A stretch of 32,000 nt of DNA from Thermococcus kodakarensis KOD1 (GTDB lineage: Archaea; Methanobacteriota_B; Thermococci; Thermococcales; Thermococcaceae). This document shows positions 8 through 21,382 of this stretch, one piece after another. The notes beneath the pieces are model-generated. The model searched no databases. It was not told where the DNA came from and was given only the letters and a program-made list of their open reading frames with translations. Location: the NCBI RefSeq assembly GCF_000009965.1, contig NC_006624.1, forward strand, positions 1,890,001-1,922,000. Direction: 5' to 3'. Both the position numbers and the translations under genes were made by a program. How positions within the stretch are numbered: position 1 is the stretch's first letter; the number at the start of each line of letters is the position of its first letter.

Positions 8-3000
8 ATGGCGTGGAACGACTGGATAGCGAAACATCCCAAGATTGTGCTGGCGGCGTGGATAGTCATCATAGTCCTCATGGCGCCGCTCGCAGGAAAA
101 CTGAGTGAGCTTACCGATTACAGTACGGAGCAGATGGTCTCCCACGAAATCGAGTCAATCAAAGTTCAGGATTTAATGGCCCAGGAGTTCACGGGAGCAC
201 AGAACGACAACCTCACGTACCTTCTCATCACGAACATCAACGTGAACGATGAAAACGCGAGGAAGGCCTACTATTCTTTCAAAGACCGGGTTGAGGGCAA
301 GTACGCCTCCAACGTTACATCCTACTACGATGCCCTGGATATGCTCTGGGAAATGGACTACGAGCTCACGCTCAACGTAACAAGGATGACCGCCAACATA
401 ACGGGGCTTCTCTACACGAGCGTCAAAGGCGCCCACGATGGCTATGGTATGGCCCTCAACCAGGTTCTTCTCCTCAAGAACACAACTGATATGGTAAAAA
501 CCAGCCTCGTCGGAACAGCCCGGGGATACGTTGCCCTTAAGAACAACCTTACGTCCCTTTACACCCAGCTCAACGCGACTGCAGGACTGCTTCAGATGGC
601 CGACGGCATCTACGTCCAGCTCTGCGCCCAGAACCCGAACATGACAGCCCAGGAGAGGGCACAGGCACTCCAGAACGAACTGATGGTCAAGGTTCCCGAG
701 AGTCAGCAGGCTATTGTTCCTGCGGTCGTGCAGGCGGTTGTCTCCGCCGACCCCTACTGCACGGGAACGCTCCTCTCCGACGAGGGGCTGCTTGAAAACA
801 CGACGGTTGAACTCGTGTACGGCATGATAACGAATGCTGGAGCTCCCCTTCCATTCGAGATTCCAAAGGAAGTTCTCTTCCAGCTCTACGAGAGCGGTGG
901 TAGCGAGACCGTAATCGACACCATGGCAGGGAACATGCTCAGGGCCCAAATAGCCGAGCAGATGGGGGGCCTCGCTCCAAACCCGGAGGCCCTTGCAGAG
1001 GTCATCTTGAGCGAGGTCGTCAAAGACCCCTATGGAATAATAAGCGGCGAAAAACTCGAAGATGCAACTGTCAGTGTGGTTCTTGCCCTATCCCCGCAGA
1101 AGACTGAGGACACCGAGAAGCTGGTCAGAGCTCTCTACAACGGCGCGGACCCGAAAGAGCTCGCTAGAGAGCTGTTCTTGAAGGGAATGCAGGAACAGAT
1201 GGCAGGCCAGGAAATTCCTGAAGAGTTCGCGGGGGTTATGAACAACCTCATCGAGCAGGTCATCCAGAACTACCCGATGAGCGAGGAAGAGCTCGAAAAA
1301 CTTGTGAAGGACGCCGTTAAGTCCATGGTATCAGAATACGCAAAGAACAACCCCTACGGTGTGGAGTTCAACTTTGACCAGGACCTTCTCGTGGACATCG
1401 CCTTCAAGTTCAAGGACAACCCCCAGGCAATATCGAAAGATGATGTCAAGCCCCTCGCAGAACAGCTCTGGCCAATCGTCAAGGAAAAGGCTGGAACCTA
1501 CCTGAGCATGCTCAAAAGCGACGACAACACTACGCTCCTGATAACCTTCATACCGTTTGGAAGGCCAGGTCCGAGCGGCGATGAATTCAGGTATCTCGCC
1601 CAGAACGCGACGGAAGTCAAGAAGGTGGCCCTCGAGGAGTTCGGAAAGTACTTCCCTGAGGTCAAAGGCGCCCTCGGTGGCACCCCCGTCCAGATGCACG
1701 AGATGACGAAGTACGGCCAGGAAGACAACCAGAAGACGAGCCAGGCGAGCATCATAGGCGCTCTCATCGTGCTCTTCATCCTGATGGGCGGCGCCCTCCT
1801 GGCGACGTTCCTTCCGTTCACGGGTGTTGCAACGTCTGCACTCACGGCCCTCGGAATAGCGTACCTCCTGGCCAAGGGCGGGATACTCAACGTCGGAAGC
1901 TGGGCACAGATGCTGACGATCACCACAGCCCTCGGTCTTGGAATTGACTACTCGACTTACTACGTCCACCGCTTCAAGGAGTACATTGCTGAGGGCTACG
2001 ACCACGAGAAAGCGGTCGCAGAGGCACTTAGGAGGGCTAAGGATGCAGTCCTTGCGAGTGCGTTCACAGACATCATAGCCTTTGCCAGCTTCGTTCTGGC
2101 ATGGGAGTTCCCGATATTCCAGCAGATTGGCATAATCGCGCCGCTTGCCGTTGTTACTGTCCTAGTAGCGAGCCTTACGTTCATCCCGGCAATAACAGCA
2201 CTCATAGGCGATAAGAGCTGGTTCTGGTGGCCGAGGCACATCAAGCACATTGAAACCATGGACGTCCACGAGAGGAGTAGAATAGCCGAGTGGGTCGTTA
2301 AGCATGCCAAGGTAGTGCTCCTCATTGGCCTGCTCATAGCGGTTCCGGCAACGTACACGTTCTTCACGTTTGAGGGAACCCACGACATAAGCCTATTCCT
2401 GCCGGAGGGCAGTGAAACTCTCACCTTCATGGAGCTGAGCCAGGAGAAGCTCGGTGCCTCGATAACTTCGCCGAACTACGTGATCATAGACATTGGACAC
2501 AAGATTACCGACGACGACCTTAAGCTGATCGACGAGATAACGGCCCACATAGCGGGAATGGAGGGAGTTAAGGCTGTCTATTCACCAACTAGACCCTACG
2601 GCGAGCCGGTCAGCAACCTCACGCTTTCAGCAATCAAGGCCCTCGGTGGGGACAGGTTCATCTCAAAGGGCGGTACCATGGTCATGATACAGATCGACCC
2701 GGTCTACGCTCCAACTGACGAGAAGGCGAAGGAGCTCGTCGAGGGCCTCAGGAGTTACATGGCCGAGCTTGAGAAGGAGGGCAAGATAAGGGAGGGCCTC
2801 GTCGGCGGTGGAGCGGCGCTCTCAATGGACCTCACAGACAGAATCAACGATATCTTCTGGCACAGGATAATCCCAGTGGCGCTGGTGCTGATGTTCCTGT
2901 CGCTAATCCCGACGCTCAAGGGACTCCCGGCGGTCGTCTCGACGATGATCACCATCTTCATGGGCGTCATGACGAGCATCTGGGTATCAACGTGGCTCTT

Positions 3001-3391
3001 CGGCAAGGTCTTCAATCAAGAAGTCATGTGGTTCCTGCCGCTGATGGTCTTCGTCGTGCTCATGGGAGTCGGCATTGACTACAACAGCTTCTATCTGGTT
3101 AAGGCCAGGGACGAGTTCGAGCGCAGGAAGCCCGAGGAAGCCCTCATAGTCGCGGCAGGAACGATGGACATGCTCGTCATAGGCCTTGCAGTAGTCCTTG
3201 CAAGCACATATGGCGCCCTGATGCTCAGCTCGACGTGGGGAACGAGGGAGATGGGCTTTGCCCTCTCAGCGGGAATCCTCCTGACAGCTGTTATGGCAGT
3301 GTACTTCATTGGGCCAGCCTTCATGAGCCTCTTTGGGGAGAAGGCCTGGTGGCCGCTGTTCAAGAGCCAGAAAGGTGCAAAGAAGGAGTGA
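8..3391 (+). CDS. MMPL/RND-superfamily membrane transporter (predicted exporter)
   Basis: Track ORF 2..3391 (1129 aa). An N-terminal TM helix and two blocks of multiple hydrophobic helices (about aa 585-745 and 960-1110) are each preceded by a large soluble domain, which is the MMPL/RND exporter layout. ATG at 8 follows GGTG at 1-4, so GTG at 2 is probably part of the SD. Upstream context is cut by the window edge. Confidence 0.8.
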   Translation: MAWNDWIAKHPKIVLAAWIVIIVLMAPLAGKLSELTDYSTEQMVSHEIESIKVQDLMAQEFTGAQNDNLTYLLITNINVNDENARKAYYSFKDRVEGKYASNVTSYYDALDMLWEMDYELTLNVTRMTANITGLLYTSVKGAHDGYGMALNQVLLLKNTTDMVKTSLVGTARGYVALKNNLTSLYTQLNATAGLLQMADGIYVQLCAQNPNMTAQERAQALQNELMVKVPESQQAIVPAVVQAVVSADPYCTGTLLSDEGLLENTTVELVYGMITNAGAPLPFEIPKEVLFQLYESGGSETVIDTMAGNMLRAQIAEQMGGLAPNPEALAEVILSEVVKDPYGIISGEKLEDATVSVVLALSPQKTEDTEKLVRALYNGADPKELARELFLKGMQEQMAGQEIPEEFAGVMNNLIEQVIQNYPMSEEELEKLVKDAVKSMVSEYAKNNPYGVEFNFDQDLLVDIAFKFKDNPQAISKDDVKPLAEQLWPIVKEKAGTYLSMLKSDDNTTLLITFIPFGRPGPSGDEFRYLAQNATEVKKVALEEFGKYFPEVKGALGGTPVQMHEMTKYGQEDNQKTSQASIIGALIVLFILMGGALLATFLPFTGVATSALTALGIAYLLAKGGILNVGSWAQMLTITTALGLGIDYSTYYVHRFKEYIAEGYDHEKAVAEALRRAKDAVLASAFTDIIAFASFVLAWEFPIFQQIGIIAPLAVVTVLVASLTFIPAITALIGDKSWFWWPRHIKHIETMDVHERSRIAEWVVKHAKVVLLIGLLIAVPATYTFFTFEGTHDISLFLPEGSETLTFMELSQEKLGASITSPNYVIIDIGHKITDDDLKLIDEITAHIAGMEGVKAVYSPTRPYGEPVSNLTLSAIKALGGDRFISKGGTMVMIQIDPVYAPTDEKAKELVEGLRSYMAELEKEGKIREGLVGGGAALSMDLTDRINDIFWHRIIPVALVLMFLSLIPTLKGLPAVVSTMITIFMGVMTSIWVSTWLFGKVFNQEVMWFLPLMVFVVLMGVGIDYNSFYLVKARDEFERRKPEEALIVAAGTMDMLVIGLAVVLASTYGALMLSSTWGTREMGFALSAGILLTAVMAVYFIGPAFMSLFGEKAWWPLFKSQKGAKKE

Positions 3392-3413
3392 TTTCCTTCT
3401 TTTCCCATTTTTG
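3392..3413 (+). terminator. Oligo-T tracts downstream of the MMPL gene (archaeal intrinsic termination signal)
   Basis: tttccttcttttcccatttttg lies directly after the TGA at 3389-3391 and includes a T5 run at 3408-3412. Confidence 0.4.
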
Positions 3414-3416
3414 TCC

Positions 3417-3431
3417 CAAAAGGGTTATATT
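3417..3431 (+). promoter_or_regulatory. BRE/TATA-like element (caaaagggttatatt) upstream of ATG 3464
   Basis: An A-rich BRE-like stretch plus GTTATATT sits 33-40 nt upstream of ATG 3464. The expected TSS is near 3453-3456, just before GGAGGGT (SD-like) and ATG 3464. No comparable TATA is visible in the 40 nt before ATG 3683. Confidence 0.4.
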
Positions 3432-3472
3432 CTCTGGACACTGTCCTTTTCTGGAGGGTAAGAATGGAGCGA

Positions 3473-3513
3473 AAAAAGCTCAAAATCTACATTCCCAGAA
3501 TCAACTTCCCCTC
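3473..3513 (+). repeat. Direct repeat copy 1 (41 nt) of the radical SAM gene 5' coding region
   Basis: aaaaagctcaaaatctacattcccagaatcaacttcccctc matches 3698-3738 at 37/41 positions. The first 23 nt are identical. Confidence 0.9.
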
Positions 3514-3518
3514 GCAGG

Positions 3519-3666
3519 ACCGGGGGGTTTCACCCCCCACGTCCTTGCTAACCCCCTCCCCCCGAAAGTGGGGCTTCGCCCCACATAAACCGGAAAACTG
3601 CGTTTCCCAGACCCTTCCTTCTTTTTTGAACGCCAGAGGGGGCTCCGCCCCCTACAACCCCCCGGT
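3519..3666. other. GC-hairpin module (about 148 nt) bounded by 11-nt inverted repeats; MITE-like or structured-leader element
   Basis: accggggggtt (3519-3529) is the reverse complement of aaccccccggt (3656-3666). Internal perfect hairpins are GGGGGG-tttca-CCCCCC (3522-3538), GTGGGGC-ttc-GCCCCAC (3568-3584) and AGGGGGC-tcc-GCCCCCT (3637-3653). Confidence 0.5.
3619..3628 (+). terminator. T6 tract inside the leader (possible attenuator or premature termination site)
   Basis: ttcttttttg with T6 at 3622-3627 lies between hairpins 2 and 3, 55 nt upstream of ATG 3683. Oligo-T runs of 5 or more are known intrinsic terminators for Thermococcus RNA polymerase. Confidence 0.35.
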
Positions 3667-3682
3667 TTTAGAGGTGAGCTAA

Positions 3683-4522
3683 ATGGCAGAACCCAAGAAA
3701 AAGCTCAAAATCTACATTCCAGGAATTAAATTCCCCTCAGTCTCACTCACCGGAAACGCCTGTGCTTTAAACTGCGCCCACTGCGGAAAGCACTACCTCG
3801 AAGGCATGAGAAAGCCCGAACGTGGTGAACTTTTGAGCTACTGCCTCAGGTTAGCGGAGGAGGGTTACAACGGCTGTCTCCTGAGCGGTGGCATGGATGG
3901 ACGCCTGAAGGTTCCCCTTGACTTCTACGCTAACGAGATAAAGGAAATTAAGAAGAGAACGAACCTCAAGCTCAACGCCCACGTGGGTTTTATTGATGAG
4001 AGCGACCTGGAGTGGGTTAAATACGTTGATGTCGTTTCCCTTGACTTCGTTGGTGACAACGACGTGATAAGGCGCGTTTACAAGATAGACAAGACTGTTG
4101 ATGACTATCTGAGGGTTCTTGACATTCTAACTGAAGCCGGTGTGAGAGTCGCACCGCACATAACGATAGGTTTGGATTTCGGAAAGATTCACTGGGAGTA
4201 CAAAGCCATAGACATGCTGGTAAAATATCCGATAGACGTGCTCGTTCTCGACGTTCTAATTCCAACAAAAGGCACAGAAATGGAGAACGTTCCAAAGCCG
4301 AGCGTCGAGGAGAGCCTTGAAGTCGTTAAGTACGCGCGTGAGATGTTCGATGGCGAGCTGAGCATAGGCTGTATGAGACCTCTCGGAAGATGGAGGTTGG
4401 AGTTTGACAGAGGGGCAATCTTAACAGGCGTTGACAGACTGACGAATCCGCCCAGAAAAGTTATCGAATGGGCAAAAGGGATAAGGGACGTTGAGATTAT
4501 CTACGAGTGCTGCGTTATGTAG
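3683..4522 (+). CDS. lipS1: Radical SAM protein, candidate LipS1-type subunit of the archaeal two-component lipoyl synthase
   Basis: 279 aa with C27-x3-C31-x2-C34 (CALNCAHC). SD GAGGTGA lies 5 nt before the ATG. The size and layout resemble biotin/lipoyl synthases. The LipS1 assignment rests on remembered T. kodakarensis TK2109 literature plus gene order and is unverified. Confidence 0.75.
   Translation: MAEPKKKLKIYIPGIKFPSVSLTGNACALNCAHCGKHYLEGMRKPERGELLSYCLRLAEEGYNGCLLSGGMDGRLKVPLDFYANEIKEIKKRTNLKLNAHVGFIDESDLEWVKYVDVVSLDFVGDNDVIRRVYKIDKTVDDYLRVLDILTEAGVRVAPHITIGLDFGKIHWEYKAIDMLVKYPIDVLVLDVLIPTKGTEMENVPKPSVEESLEVVKYAREMFDGELSIGCMRPLGRWRLEFDRGAILTGVDRLTNPPRKVIEWAKGIRDVEIIYECCVM
3698..3738 (+). 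repeat. Direct repeat copy 2 (inside the real radical SAM CDS)
   Basis: aaaaagctcaaaatctacattccaggaattaaattcccctc is the partner of 3473-3513, offset by 225 nt (75 codons). Confidence 0.9.
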
Positions 4523-4585
4523 GGCTCACCAAACCTCGCATCATCACAAATCAGAAAGGAGAACGCCGATCATCGCCCTCTATTT

Positions 4586-8619: not shown

Positions 8620-8702
8620 CGGAAATCACCCCGTTATGTCATTGTCCGAAACCCAATTAAACCTACCGATGGATGGAAATCAGAATTCAAGGGGTGAAGA
8701 GC

Positions 8703-20168: not shown

Positions 20169-20244
20169 AGCCCCGTGGTGTAGCGGCCAAGCATGCGGGA
20201 CTTTGGATCCCGCGACCCGGGTTCGAATCCCGGCGGGGCTACCA
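20169..20244 (+). tRNA. tRNA-Gln (anticodon UUG), CCA encoded
   Basis: Hand-folded cloverleaf. Acceptor AGCCCCG/CGGGGCT, anticodon stem CGGGA/TCCCG with loop CTTTGGA (anticodon TTG), T arm CCGGG-TTCGAAT-CCCGG, discriminator A, then CCA at 20242-20244. Confidence 0.9.
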
Positions 20245-20270
20245 GTACAGCCCTTTCTTGCGAAAGCGCT

Positions 20271-20404
20271 GGCGGAAAGTTGGTATGCTCTTTTAAACAG
20301 GCTCGTTTTATGGGGGGTTTTACTTACCAATCTGCTGATTCAAAAGGATTTTATCACCGCATAGTGCCCGAAGGGCACTAAAAAGAAAGTCAAAATCACA
20401 ATTA
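20271..20404. repeat. Conserved core of tandem repeat, copy 1 (134 nt)
   Basis: It matches 20793-20925 with 8 differences by hand alignment (about 94%). It contains TTTTAAAC (20291-20298), a G6 run and the hairpin AGTGCCC-GAA-GGGCACT (20363-20379). Confidence 0.9.
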
Positions 20405-20503
20405 ATAAGAGGTTTTGAGAGTAAAACCCATGCAAAGTTGCTTTCTGGAAAGAGCATACGCTCCTCAATAAGCAAAGTTCGAGAAGAAGGGCACACTTTT
20501 GGT

Positions 20504-20524
20504 CAAGCTTTTTCCAAAAGCTTG
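20504..20524. repeat. Palindromic hairpin CAAGCTTTT-tcc-AAAAGCTTG (copy 1 of 3)
   Basis: Perfect 9-bp inverted repeat preceded by the conserved ACTTTTGGT. Related copies are at 20733-20753 and 21024-21044. Confidence 0.85.
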
Positions 20525-20627
20525 AAGGGCAAAGTTTCATCAAAGAGCGAATGTCCTTTTTAAACTGCTGGGTTTCAGTGATTCTCACCATAAATTGGGC
20601 AATCCTCAAGGGTTTACTCACAATATA

Positions 20628-20645
20628 ACGCCCCGAAGGGCGTTA
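20628..20645. repeat. GC hairpin AACGCCC-cgaa-GGGCGTT of repeat unit 2
   Basis: Perfect 7-bp stem followed by an A-rich run. It is position-equivalent to 20363-20379, 20883-20899 and 21174-21190. Confidence 0.8.
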
Positions 20646-20732
20646 AAAAAGAAAACCCGCATTACTCCGCCCCTCTATCAAGAGAATCTAATCGCATCAA
20701 GCCAACATCAAGAAGACATTCAAACTTTTGGT

Positions 20733-20753
20733 GAAGCTTTTTCTAAAAGCTTC
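20733..20753. repeat. Palindromic hairpin GAAGCTTTT-tct-AAAAGCTTC (copy 2 of 3)
   Basis: Same hairpin as 20504-20524, but the closing pair has switched from C..G to G..C on both arms (a compensatory change). Confidence 0.85.
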
Positions 20754-20792
20754 AGCGCCGCTTTCACTATCGTTCAAGCGTCCTTGACGGAT

Positions 20793-20925
20793 GGCGGAAA
20801 GTTGGTATGCTTTTTTAAACAGGCTCGTTTTATGGGGGGTTTACTTTCAATTGGCTGATTCAAAAGGATTTTATCACCGTATAGTGCCCGAAGGGCACTA
20901 AAAAGAAAGTCAAAAATCACAATTA
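20793..20925. repeat. Conserved core of tandem repeat, copy 2 (133 nt)
   Basis: Partner of 20271-20404, offset by 522 nt. It contains TTTTTTAAAC (20811-20820) and the hairpin at 20883-20899. Confidence 0.9.
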
Positions 20926-21023
20926 GCGGGAAGATTTTGGAATTAAACCCGCGTGAACTTGCTTCCTGGTGGAAGCATGCACTTCCCAACAACAAGTTCA
21001 AGGGGGAAGGAAACATTTTTGGT

Positions 21024-21044
21024 CAAGCTTTTCCTAAAAGCTTG
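21024..21044. repeat. Palindromic hairpin CAAGCTTTT-cct-AAAAGCTTG (copy 3 of 3)
   Basis: Perfect 9-bp inverted repeat preceded by ATTTTTGGT. Confidence 0.85.
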
Positions 21045-21173
21045 CTGGCGAAGTTTGATCAAGGTTCGTAGCTCTTTTTTTAGAATCCTAATCCATCGTG
21101 ATTTTCCAATTCAAATGGCTTTTTGAAAGTGAGAACCCTTAACACCCTGTCAACTCGTGTTTAACTCTAAATC

Positions 21174-21190
21174 GACGCCCTTTGGGCGTC
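21174..21190. repeat. GC hairpin GACGCCC-ttt-GGGCGTC of repeat unit 4
   Basis: Perfect 7-bp stem followed by the A-rich aaagaaaagaaaac, as in units 1-3. Confidence 0.75.
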
Positions 21191-21311
21191 AAAGAAAAGA
21201 AAACACCCTTTTTTCAAGAAGTTTCCTATAAAGGTTCCACTCAAAAATGAGCACTTGCAGTCCAAAATCCTGAATAAAAAGCCACCTCAAAGAAGAGCTA
21301 CAAACTTTGAT

Positions 21312-21333
21312 GAAACTTTGCTTGCAAAGTTTC
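21312..21333. repeat. Palindrome GAAACTTTGC-tt-GCAAAGTTTC just upstream of the cobA-like promoter
   Basis: Perfect 10-bp inverted repeat. 21304-21320 (ctttgatgaaactttgc), which overlaps its left arm, is the reverse complement of gcaaagtttcatcaaag at 20529-20545. Confidence 0.8.
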
Positions 21334-21341
21334 TTGGCAAA

Positions 21342-21350
21342 CATATAAAA
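21342..21350 (+). promoter_or_regulatory. TATA-like box (catataaaa) for the cobA-like gene
   Basis: It lies 33 nt upstream of ATG 21383. Confidence 0.4.
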
Positions 21351-21382
21351 GGAGCTGGAGATTATGTCCAACGGTGAAAACA

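What the first reader, a model, noticed from the sequence alone, without database searches (positions are those of the whole stretch)
3415..3740. Start of the LipS1-like radical SAM gene is duplicated around a GC-hairpin insert, giving an in-frame upstream ORF and a 219-nt structured leader
Seen directly:
- The 41 nt encoding KKLKIYIP(R/G)I(N/K)FPS occur twice (3473-3513 and 3698-3738), matching at 37/41 with the first 23 nt identical.
- Each copy follows its own ATG and SD-like sequence (GGAGGGT-aaga-ATG 3464; GAGGTGA-gctaa-ATG 3683).
- The only TATA-like element (3424-3431) precedes the first ATG, not the second.
- The two ATGs are in the same frame, 219 nt (73 codons) apart. ORF 3464..3682 stops at TAA directly abutting ATG 3683 (TAAATG).
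- Between the copies lie three perfect GC hairpins and a T6 tract (3622-3627).

Inference: an ancestral short-leader gene acquired an in-frame insertion. The functional CDS (CxxxCxxC at aa 27-34) now sits behind a leader that must be transcribed through hairpins and an oligo-T terminator-like signal. Its translation may be coupled to termination of the decoy ORF. That would be an attenuator or uORF-type control of a cofactor (lipoate) enzyme, which is unusual for Thermococcales, where leaders are mostly short.
Basis: partly seen in the sequence, partly recalled or inferred. Interest (0 to 1): 0.7.

Follow-up and report, generated by a model that had tools for sequence, protein, structure and literature searches.

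The report
Fossil gene start feeding lipoyl synthase
In Thermococcus kodakarensis and many relatives, a conserved hairpin-rich insert has split off the original start of the lipoyl-synthase gene lipS1, and that old start now heads a short reading frame that runs through the insert and stops exactly where the working gene begins, most likely handing ribosomes on to it.

Summary
The 41-nt repeat, both SD+ATG pairs, the 72-codon ORF ending TAA|ATG and the three perfect 7-bp GC hairpins are all at the stated coordinates.

The window is T. kodakarensis KOD1 and the gene is TK2109 (LipS1).

- **Insertion.** An orthologue without the insert (Thermococcus sp. Bubb.Bath) starts directly at the upstream ATG behind the same promoter. 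About 20 other Thermococcus lineages carry the insert at the identical junction, with lengths of 58-439 nt and often stacked.
- **Not a mobile element.** I found no evidence for a multicopy MITE or an integrase-bearing element. No Rfam family matches.
- **Upstream ORF.** The frame from the old ATG is free of stop codons in 19 of 20 lineages. It ends within -14 to +41 nt of the lipS1 start. It shows no amino-acid-level constraint.
- **Conservation.** The first ~50 nt of the insert are 95% identical across lineages whose lipS1 third codon positions are 54% identical.
- **Variable parts.** Hairpin 2 and the T6 tract are often lost.

Best reading: a selectively kept leader whose fossil start drives a relay ORF coupled to lipS1 translation. 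The attenuator idea is not supported. The TSS, the coupling and the role of the conserved stem-loop are untested.

The parts
3404..3431 (+). Conserved promoter block CCCATTTTTGTCCCAAAAGGGTTATAT(TC), with TATA-like TTATATTC at 3424-3431. This is the ancestral lipS1 promoter.
   Evidence: The same block precedes the gene in the insert-free orthologue L004 and in the insert-bearing orthologues L001, L003, L005, L006, L007 and L016. The TSS is not mapped. A TSS near 3453-3456 is inferred from the usual archaeal TATA-to-TSS distance.
3453..3466 (+). Ancestral SD (GGAGGGT, 3453-3459) and ancestral start codon (ATG, 3464-3466).
   Evidence: In L004 the equivalent ATG is the lipS1 start, MERKKLKIYIPGIKFPS....
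3464..3682 (+). Relay upstream ORF: 72 codons plus TAA. It comprises 17 fossil LipS1 codons and 55 codons that read through the insert.
   Evidence: The frame is open in 19 of 20 lineages, and its stop lies -14 to +41 nt from the lipS1 start. The uORF frame has 0 stops against 5-8 in each other frame of the long forms. Substitutions are spread evenly over codon positions. Its only homologues are the same uORFs.
3473..3513 (+). Repeat copy 1: fossil codons 4-17, KKLKIYIPRINFPS.
   Evidence: Within genomes, copy 1 and copy 2 differ at 96 synonymous and 19 non-synonymous codons. Lineage-specific variants are shared by both copies.
3514..3562 (+). Near-invariant left end of the insert, G|CAGGACCGGGGGGTTTCACCCCCCACGTCCTTGCTAACCCCCTCCCCCC. 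It forms an extended stem-loop: lower stem 3516-3520/3542-3546, upper stem 3522-3528/3532-3538. A C-rich tract follows.
   Evidence: Mean pairwise identity is 0.947, against 0.536 for lipS1 third codon positions and 0.58 for copy 1 third positions. It is present in all 20 lineages and is the only insert part kept in the 58-nt minimal form L010. Helix 1 is 98.8% paired but almost invariant, so it cannot be tested by covariation.
3568..3584 (+). Hairpin 2, GTGGGGC-TTC-GCCCCAC. Dispensable.
   Evidence: It is deleted in L007, L009, L010, L017, L023, L026 and L027.
3592..3608 (+). Middle hairpin, GGAAAAC-TGC-GTTTCCC. It carries an A·C mismatch here and is a perfect GGGAAAC/GTTTCCC in most orthologues.
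   Evidence: helix 3, 97% paired.
3617..3629 (+). T-rich tract TTCTTTTTTGAAC, with T6 at 3622-3627. It is neither a conserved terminator nor a clear TATA box.
   Evidence: The tract varies among orthologues: TCTTTTAAAC, TCCCCTAAAC, TTTTCTAAAC. No + strand terminator-like site was called inside the insert.
3637..3653 (+). Hairpin 3, AGGGGGC-TCC-GCCCCCT, followed by ACAACCCCCC (3655-3664).
   Evidence: 92% paired, one compensatory G-C to A-U change in L011. The right ~70 nt of the insert resemble the native lipS1 upstream region of Palaeococcus ferrophilus (L008).
3671..3685 (+). Second SD GAGGTGA (3671-3677), uORF stop TAA (3680-3682) and the working start ATG (3683-3685).
   Evidence: In the common orthologous form cTGAggTGAgcTAAATG, stop codons occur in all three frames within 15 nt of the ATG.
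3683..4522 (+). lipS1 (TK2109), a radical-SAM lipoyl synthase subunit of 279 aa with CxxxCxxC at residues 27-34.
   Evidence: NCBIfam NF053742 E = 4.6e-104. Pfam PF04055. Cys27/31/34 match the characterised T. kodakarensis LipS1 (PMC9585515).
3698..3738 (+). Repeat copy 2: working codons 6-19, KKLKIYIPGIKFPS.
   Evidence: Across lineages, codon positions 1 and 2 are 0.945 and 1.0 identical and position 3 is 0.527 identical.

Best explanation
**What it is.** The 5' end of lipS1 (TK2109 of T. kodakarensis) has been displaced by a ~170-nt hairpin-rich insert. The insert brings its own SD, ATG and a second copy of codons 4-17. The event has a single origin, because the junction is identical in every lineage examined.

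**How it has evolved since.** The structure has been reshaped by recombination between the 41-nt repeats:
- gene conversion between the two copies,
- tandem stacking of units,
- deletions between internal repeats,
- exchange of leader units between lineages.

**How it most likely works** (inferred, except where stated):
1. Transcription still starts at the ancestral promoter (TATA 3424-3431).
2. Ribosomes load at the ancestral SD and ATG (3453-3466).
3. They translate a 72-codon relay ORF whose peptide is irrelevant.
4. They terminate at TAA 3680-3682, inside the SD/start region of lipS1.
5. lipS1 (ATG 3683) is then translated by termination-reinitiation, by direct initiation at the strong SD, or by both. 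Keeping the leader translated may also protect the transcript from premature termination or decay.

**The conserved core.** The invariant ~50-nt stem-loop at the left end of the insert is under nucleotide-level selection. It is probably the functional core of the leader. Its role is unknown.

**Shown here.** The insertion, its distribution, ORF openness without peptide constraint, the position of the uORF stop, and differential conservation along the insert.

**Inferred.** The TSS, translation of the uORF, the coupling itself, and why the leader is kept.
For: **Insertion and its distribution**
- L004 is an empty site with the same promoter.
- The junction TCG|CAGGACCGGGG is identical in 20 distinct loci.

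**ORF openness**
- The uORF is open in 19 of 20 loci, and its stop lies -14 to +41 nt from the lipS1 ATG. In 17 of 20 the gap is at most 11 nt or the genes overlap by 4 nt.
- The long forms (375-439 nt, with an AT-rich palindromic extra segment) have 0 stops in the uORF frame and 5-8 in each of the other five frames. The shuffle probability is about 0.001.
- Distinct stop sites over the alignment number 1, 12 and 13 in frames 0, 1 and 2 (binomial P = 3.7e-4).

**No peptide constraint**
- Substitutions by codon position are flat in the insert: 32/29/26 (L006 vs L017) and 267/310/195 (short forms). In lipS1 they are 34/19/118 and 1036/786/3395.

**Nucleotide-level conservation**
- The left 50 nt are 0.947 identical and the rest of the insert 0.73-0.89. 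lipS1 third positions are 0.536 identical, and third positions of the flanking repeat copies 0.53-0.58.

**Recombination between the copies**
- Copy 1 and copy 2 differ at 96 synonymous and 19 non-synonymous codons, with lineage-specific variants shared by both copies. The T. atlanticus copies are identical.
- Recombination between the repeats would precisely restore a working short-leader gene, yet the insert persists. This is an inference, not a tested result.

**Relay pattern in stacked units**
- Upstream remnant ORFs in L001, L009, L012 and L022 also end 5-12 nt before the next ATG.

**Transcription of the leader**
- 1225 small-RNA-seq reads align over the T. kodakarensis coordinates equivalent to 3497-3721 (PMC9014305 Data S3).

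**Precedent for the mechanism**
- Termination-reinitiation works in archaea only at overlaps or very short gaps (PMC6728339, PMC10666635).
Against: - **No direct expression data.** No TSS, ribosome-profiling or reporter data for TK2109 could be retrieved. The TSS table of PMC4247193 is truncated in the held copy.
- **Independent initiation is possible.** lipS1 has a strong SD of its own, predicted to be largely unpaired at 85 C (P unpaired 0.4-0.8). Coupling is therefore not forced by structure.
- **Weak evidence for ongoing selection against stops.** In the variant-based test, 7.3 stop-creating variants are expected in frame 0 and at most 1 is observed. The other frames are also depleted, with 8.1 expected and 3 observed. 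Much of the signal is therefore the ancestral openness of the frame.
- **Exceptions.** L022 has a premature uORF stop, caused by one extra C in a homopolymer. L010 and L026 have 32-41-nt overlaps.
- **Much of the insert is dispensable.** Most of it can be deleted, and the hairpins show no covariation.
- **A weak internal promoter is not excluded.**
Confidence: 0.5

Rival explanations
1. The insert is a neutral recombination scar. It is junk left by an old duplication or insertion. lipS1 is expressed independently from its own SD, perhaps from a weak internal promoter. The open upstream frame is an inherited accident of a GC-rich sequence.
For: - Short-form inserts stay open in 27-40% of shuffles.
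- Frequent deletions occur, and lengths range from 58 to 439 nt.
- No covariation is seen.
- The SD is accessible.
- The variant-based test is weak.
Against: - The left 50 nt are 0.95 identical where neighbouring synonymous sites are 0.53-0.58 identical.
- The AT-rich long forms are open only in the uORF frame (P about 0.001).
- The insert persists although repeat recombination would excise it precisely, and such recombination is evident from concerted evolution of the copies.
Confidence: 0.2
2. The origin is a scar of a site-specific mobile or integrative element. In this view a small cassette targets codon 17/18 of lipS1 and carries a replacement SD, ATG and N-terminus. The 41-nt repeats would be attL and attR, and stacked units would record repeated integrations.
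For: - The junction is identical everywhere, and the left end is highly conserved.
- Stacked units with divergent right ends occur in L009, L012, L014, L015, L016, L019, L022 and L026.
- Differences between the two copies are mostly synonymous.
- Insert and lipS1 distances are only weakly correlated, with clear discordances (Mantel r = 0.24, p = 0.09).
- An empty site exists.
Against: - No integrase or any gene lies in the insert.
- No larger version than 439 nt was seen.
- The left-end 21-mer occurs once per genome, and only at lipS1 (5 MAGs).
- There are no matches in viral contigs, plasmids or phages.
- Stacking and junction identity are equally explained by unequal homologous recombination of an inherited junction.
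Confidence: 0.12
3. The leader is a transcription attenuator. Hairpins plus the oligo-T tract would terminate transcription prematurely unless uORF translation or another signal prevents it.
For: - Stable hairpins and a T6 tract are present in this genome.
- Archaeal termination uses U-tracts (PMC8716108, listed).
Against: - No hairpin directly precedes the T6 tract, and no + strand terminator-like site is called.
- The T-tract is degraded in most orthologues and hairpin 2 is often deleted.
- No alternative pairings are conserved.
- Read density over the leader (RPKM 32.6, small-RNA-seq) is not lower than the gene's RPKM of 20.7 from total RNA-seq. The two values come from different libraries, so this comparison is weak.
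Confidence: 0.06
4. ORF 3464-3682 encodes a functional small protein.
For: The ORF is called and open in many genomes, at 62-73 aa and 140-159 aa.
Against: - Substitutions are flat over codon positions.
- Frameshifts in the C-terminal half are tolerated (L003, L005, L009).
- There is no Pfam or NCBIfam hit.
- The only homologues among 1.84 billion representatives are the same uORFs, plus one low-complexity hit.
- Its P/S/G/Q/H-rich composition is atypical for a hyperthermophile protein. This point rests on my own knowledge.
Confidence: 0.03

Closest known systems
Translationally coupled overlapping or abutting gene pairs (termination-reinitiation) in archaea and bacteria (Huber et al. 2019, PMC6728339; Huber et al. 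2023, PMC10666635)
   Same: - The upstream ORF stops at, or within a few nt of, the downstream start (TAAATG here; ATGA overlaps in T. atlanticus and T. siculi).
- The SD lies inside the end of the upstream ORF.
- The distances fall in the range where reinitiation works.
   Different: - The upstream ORF is not a gene. It is a fossil N-terminus fused to non-coding sequence with no peptide constraint.
- Coupling has not been measured here.
Bacterial leader-peptide or uORF leaders (trp and his attenuators, ermC and tnaC type)
   Same: A short ORF sits in a structured leader upstream of a biosynthetic gene.
   Different: - There is no conserved terminator.
- There are no conserved alternative hairpins.
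- There are no regulatory codons and no conserved arrest peptide.
Integrative elements that rebuild the gene they interrupt (phage 21 and e14 in E. coli icd; tRNA-gene-targeting elements of Thermococcales such as TKV and pTN3). Cited from my own knowledge.
   Same: A direct repeat of the gene end flanks the inserted DNA, and the gene stays intact thanks to a substitute end brought by the insert.
   Different: - The 5' end, not the 3' end, is duplicated.
- The insert is only 58-439 nt and carries no integrase.
- No free copy was found.
MITEs and foldback elements
   Same: - The insert is small, hairpin-rich and non-coding.
- The extra ~290 nt of the long-form leaders is a long foldback (z = -6.05).
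- The terminal motif of that segment, AAGTTTCATCAAAG, recurs at window 20532 and 21305.
   Different: - The core insert is single-copy.
- Its inverted repeat is not conserved.
- Its flanking repeat is 41 nt of diverged coding sequence, not a short target-site duplication.

Membership tests
LipS1 lipoyl synthase (downstream gene) | Match to the NCBIfam NF053742 equivalog above its cut-off, and a radical-SAM CxxxCxxC motif | tested here: met
   347.8 bits against a cut-off of 230. PF04055. Cys27/31/34 as in characterised TK2109.
Termination-reinitiation coupled ORF pair | The stop of the upstream ORF overlaps the downstream start or lies within a few nt of it | tested here: met
   TAA|ATG in the window. 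In 17 of 20 lineages the gap is at most 11 nt or there is a 4-nt overlap.
Termination-reinitiation coupled ORF pair | Both ORFs lie on one transcript, and the upstream ORF is translated | not testable with these tools
   There is only indirect evidence: 1225 small-RNA reads over the leader. The held TSS table is truncated.
Termination-reinitiation coupled ORF pair | Downstream translation depends on upstream translation | not testable with these tools
   This needs stop-codon or start-codon mutants with a reporter in T. kodakarensis.
Transcription attenuator | A conserved intrinsic terminator in the leader | tested here: not met
   No + strand terminator-like site lies in 3464-3682. The T-tract is not conserved.
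Transcription attenuator | Conserved, mutually exclusive alternative structures | tested here: not met
   The four local hairpins are conserved, but only one compensatory change is seen and the counts do not exceed shuffles. SD pairing partners differ between lineages.
MITE / transposable element | Multiple copies per genome | tested here: not met
   There is no second copy in the 32-kb window. The left-end 21-mer occurs once in each of 5 genomes, always at lipS1. Caveat: those genomes are MAGs, and the named isolates that carry the 21-mer were not returned by the scan.
MITE / transposable element | Conserved terminal inverted repeats and a short target-site duplication | tested here: not met
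   The 11-nt inverted repeat of the window is absent or altered in orthologues. The flanking repeat is 41 nt and differs by synonymous changes.
Integrated element (att duplication) | Flanking direct repeats, plus an empty site in a relative | tested here: met
Integrated element (att duplication) | A recombinase gene or remnant, or a free or other-site copy of the element | tested here: not met
   There are no genes in the insert. Searches of viral contigs, plasmids and phages found nothing. The translated insert has no protein homologues.
Any described RNA family (Rfam 15) | A covariance-model match | tested here: not met
   Only chance-level hits (E >= 0.24) in 3000-4200, and nothing at gathering score.

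The most novel reading that the evidence does not exclude
Two new readings remain open.

1. The invariant ~50-nt stem-loop and the relay ORF form a dedicated, selectively maintained control element of lipoyl-synthase expression. It might, for example, sense translation, Fe-S status or temperature.
2. More radically, the unit [stem-loop ... SD-ATG-17 codons] is a self-propagating '5'-end cassette' that repeatedly installs itself at codon 17/18 of lipS1 and supplies a new start each time. This would be a kind of gene-preserving mini mobile element not described so far.
Probability: 0.15. Interest if true: 0.8.

Novelty: new variant of a known kind. Interest (0 to 1): 0.55.

Why it matters
**Evidence for a used leader.** Leader-based control and functional upstream ORFs are poorly documented in archaea. 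Here a 219-nt translated leader sits in front of a characterised cofactor enzyme in the main genetic model of the Thermococcales. Comparative evidence from about 20 lineages suggests that the leader is kept and that its reading frame is kept open. It is directly testable by markerless mutagenesis in T. kodakarensis.

**Evolutionary route.** A gene's own displaced start appears to be recycled as a ribosome-delivery ORF. 41-nt coding repeats drive concerted evolution, stacking and decay of whole '5'-end units'.

**Annotation.** The 62-159-aa 'hypothetical proteins' called upstream of lipS1 in several Thermococcus genomes are these relay ORFs. They are not protein genes.

Tried and rejected
**MITE hypothesis**
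- A blastn of the region against the window found no second copy.
- The genome-collection scan with the left-end 21-mer gave 5 hits, all at lipS1.
- Scans of viral contigs gave none.
- Distant-mode searches of plasmids and phages with the long-form insert gave no match.

**Known RNA family**
- Three Rfam scans returned only chance hits.

**Insert as the 3' end of a lost upstream gene**
- Searches with the 72-aa uORF, with the 159-aa long-form uORF, and by HMMER over 1.84 billion representatives found only the uORFs themselves.
- Pfam found nothing.

**SD sequestration by the C-rich tract or by the end of copy 1**
- Predicted pairing partners vary between lineages, and the SD is mostly unpaired at 85 C. 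This gave no conclusion.

**Structure by covariation**
- The stems are 95.5% paired but barely vary, and the counts do not exceed shuffles.

**Published TSS for TK2109**
- The term is absent from the held supplements of PMC4247193, whose TSS table is cut.

**Circular RNA 'TK2109' from PMC9014305**
- This is a C/D-box sRNA at the 3' end of the gene. It is unrelated to the leader.
Full report
**1. Observation**

- The 41-nt direct repeat 3473-3513 / 3698-3738 is 90% identical, with the first 23 nt identical.
- Each copy is preceded by an SD-like motif and an ATG: GGAGGGT-aaga-ATG 3464 and GAGGTGA-gctaa-ATG 3683.
- ORF 3464..3682 has 72 codons, and its TAA abuts the ATG of the 279-aa ORF 3683..4522.
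- Three perfect hairpins with a 7-bp stem and 3-nt loop (3522-38, 3568-84, 3637-53) are clustered here. No comparable cluster of GC hairpins was found outside 3522-3653, apart from a looser group at 20.3-21.2 kb. The insert has no second copy in the 32 kb.
- I add a fourth hairpin (3592-3608) and an 11-nt perfect inverted repeat (3519-29 / 3656-66).
- The leader folds better than shuffles (z = -3.2).
- No Rfam family matches.
- The downstream gene is LipS1 (NF053742, 347.8 bits against a cut-off of 230). The upstream gene is an MMPL transporter.

**2. Where the window comes from**

Four independent anchors place the window at T. kodakarensis KOD1, about 1,890,000-1,921,999.
- The RT-PCR primers and coordinates of the 'TK2109' circular RNA (1894519-1894579; PMC9014305) match window 4520-4580 exactly.
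- The TK2108 TSS at 1890013 maps to window position 14.
- The TK2116 TSS at 1898683 maps to position 8684, 11 nt inside an ORF that starts at 8673.
- The radical-SAM cysteines are 27/31/34, as in the characterised enzyme (PMC9585515).

The gene is therefore TK2109. The recombinant protein made from the annotated TK2109 sequence, whose cysteine numbering matches a start at 3683, was characterised as an active LipS1.

**3. It is an insertion into an ancestral short-leader gene**

- In Thermococcus sp. Bubb.Bath (L004) the same promoter block (CCCATTTTTGTCCCAAAAGGGTTATAT) is followed after about 30 nt by ATG GAA AGG AAA AAG CTC... = MERKKLKIYIPGIKFPS, which runs straight into the rest of lipS1. 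The upstream ATG of the window is therefore the ancestral start.
- T. peptonophilus, T. profundus, T. siculi, T. atlanticus, Thermococcus sp. CX2 and many MAG or metagenome lineages carry an insert at exactly the same junction...TTCCCCTCG|CAGGACCGGGGGGTTTCACCCCCCACGTCCTTGC....
- Twenty distinct loci were analysed. Insert lengths are 58-439 nt.
- An independent assembly (L002) is identical to the window, so this is not an assembly artefact.

**4. What the insert is not**

- **Not a multicopy MITE.** The left-end 21-mer is found once per genome, and only at lipS1. One caveat applies. The 5 hits are MAGs, and named isolates that carry the 21-mer were not returned, so that collection evidently lacks them.
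- **No conserved terminal repeats.** The 11-nt inverted repeat is not conserved.
- **No link to known mobile elements.** Nothing related is found in viral contigs, plasmids or phages.
- **No coding origin.** The translated insert has no protein relatives other than the same uORFs.

**5. How the locus evolves**

- Within genomes the two repeat copies differ at 96 synonymous and only 19 non-synonymous codons. In L011, 10 of 13 codons differ and all changes are synonymous.
- Several lineages share a private variant in both copies: V in L012 and L017, YVP in L005. In T. atlanticus the copies and their upstream SD regions are identical. This is the signature of gene conversion between the copies.
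- In L009, L012, L014, L015, L016, L019, L022 and L026 the upstream copy is itself preceded by a right-end-like sequence (hairpin 3, ACAACCCCC, SD, ATG). These are stacked and partly deleted older units.
- L001 and others show deletions from the old ATG to hairpin 3. L007, L017 and L027 show deletions between hairpins 2 and 3.
- Divergence of the insert correlates only weakly with divergence of lipS1 (Mantel r = 0.24, p = 0.09). There are clear discordances, for example L009 vs L014 at 0.06 against 0.22. Leader units are therefore exchanged between lineages.
- A single origin followed by equal and unequal homologous recombination through the 41-nt repeats explains all of this. Repeated site-specific insertion of a cassette is not excluded.
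- The right ~70 nt of the insert resemble the native lipS1 upstream region of Palaeococcus ferrophilus, where lipS1 follows lplA.
- The 'long form' (L006/L013, L017, and the proteins P0131 and P0132) carries an extra ~290-nt AT-rich foldback (z = -6.05). Its terminal motif recurs in a repeat-rich region of this window, so it is probably a nested repeat element.

**6. Evidence that the leader is used**

(a) *The reading frame stays open.*
- The frame from the old ATG is open through the insert in 19 of 20 loci. It ends -14 to +41 nt from the lipS1 start whatever the insert length mod 3. This works because the SD/start region carries stops in all three frames.
- The long forms have 0 stops in that frame and 5-8 in each of the other five frames (shuffle P about 0.001).
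- Over the alignment, distinct stop sites number 1, 12 and 13 in frames 0, 1 and 2 (P = 3.7e-4).

(b) *The peptide does not matter.* Substitutions are evenly spread over codon positions in the insert but concentrated at third positions in lipS1.

(c) *Parts of the insert are conserved at the nucleotide level.*
- The insert is more conserved than neutral sites next to it. The left 50 nt are 0.947 identical and other segments 0.73-0.89.
- By comparison, lipS1 third positions are 0.536 identical and third positions of the two repeat copies 0.53-0.58.
- The minimal 58-nt insert (L010) keeps only this left element plus the SD.

(d) *The insert persists.* Recombination between the repeats would excise it precisely and regenerate a working gene. 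Such recombination clearly occurs, yet the insert remains. This is an inference.

(e) *The leader is transcribed.* The equivalent T. kodakarensis coordinates carry 1225 aligned small-RNA reads.

**7. Limits of that evidence**

- A variant-based test for ongoing selection against stops is weak. In frame 0, 7.3 stop-creating variants are expected and at most 1 is observed. The other frames are also depleted, with 8.1 expected and 3 observed.
- The hairpins are 95.5% paired but almost invariant, so covariation gives no support.
- The lipS1 SD is strong and mostly unpaired at 85 C in predictions.
- L022 has an early uORF stop. In L017 the lipS1 start reads ACG directly after the uORF TAA. Both are MAG or metagenome sequences.
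- No TSS, Term-seq or ribosome-profiling data for TK2109 could be retrieved.

**8. Mechanism proposed**

1. Transcription starts at the ancestral promoter.
2. Ribosomes initiate at the ancestral SD and ATG.
3. They translate a 72-codon relay ORF.
4. They terminate at TAA 3680-3682, within the lipS1 SD/start region.
5. lipS1 is translated by termination-reinitiation, by direct SD-dependent initiation, or by both.

In archaea, termination-reinitiation requires overlaps or gaps well below about 20 nt (PMC10666635). That condition is met in 17 of 20 lineages.

Keeping the leader translated may also shield it from factor-dependent termination or decay. This last point is an inference from what is known about archaeal polarity and rests on my own knowledge.

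The invariant stem-loop (3514-3549) and the C-rich tract (3550-3562) are the likely functional core. Their role is unknown.

**9.

This reading is not supported.
- No terminator-like site lies on the + strand.
- The T6 tract and hairpin 2 are not conserved.
- There are no conserved alternative structures.
- There are no regulatory codons in the leader peptide.

**10. Verdict**

The feature is real and widespread. It is best described as a fossil gene start recycled as a relay uORF inside a conserved structured leader. This is a new variant of known kinds (uORF and translational coupling; gene-end duplication by insertion). It is not a new category. Function and origin both remain open and are directly testable in T. 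kodakarensis.

Noticed in passing
window 4521-4581 (- strand): A C/D-box sRNA lies directly after the lipS1 stop codon: C GCGAUGA, D' CUGA, C' GUGAUGA, D GUGA, with GC-rich terminal stems. It corresponds to the 61-nt Rnl-dependent circular RNA listed as 'TK2109' in PMC9014305. The Rfam gathering scan does not detect it.
   Followed up: partly
whole window: The window is T. kodakarensis KOD1, about 1,890,000-1,921,999 (offset 1,889,999). This follows from exact primer matches and three coordinate anchors taken from published tables.
   Followed up: yes
window 3497-3721 (T. kodakarensis 1893496-1893720): PMC9014305 Data S3 lists one 'circular junction' read of length 225, exactly the copy 1 to copy 2 period. 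It may be a template switch between the repeats or a rare duplicated or excised form. A single read cannot be interpreted.
   Followed up: no
window 20242-21360: About 1.1 kb of non-coding, repeat-rich DNA lies 3' of a tRNA gene (20169-20241). It contains a 520-nt-period duplication (96-98% identical) and three 54-nt repeats with an AAGCTTTTTCCAAAAGCTT hairpin. It also holds an inverted pair of the 14-mer AAGTTTCATCAAAG (20532 +, 21305 -; 0.01 expected by chance). That 14-mer is also the terminal motif of the extra foldback segment in long-form lipS1 leaders of other species.
   Followed up: partly
L006 1573-2350, L007 1821-2596, L017 2531-2994: Small toxin-antitoxin cassettes (PIN_3-containing; HicB-like) are inserted between the MMPL gene and the lipS1 promoter or leader in some lineages. 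The spot appears to be a hotspot for small insertions.
   Followed up: no
L017 3421-3429: In this MAG the lipS1 start position reads ACG directly after the uORF stop (TAA ACG ACG GGA...), and the gene caller starts 40 codons later, past the CxxxCxxC motif. It may be a sequencing error, a pseudogene, or reinitiation at a non-AUG codon.
   Followed up: no
window 3818-3879 (+): A weak Rfam hit to C/D-box sR19 lies inside lipS1 (17 bits, E = 0.24, far below the gathering score). It is probably chance.
   Followed up: no
Genome-contig collection: The exact 21-mer is present in T. peptonophilus, T. profundus, T. siculi, T. atlanticus and Thermococcus sp. CX2 (loci fetched by other routes). The genome scan nevertheless returned only five MAGs, so copy-number conclusions from that scan are limited.
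   Followed up: partly
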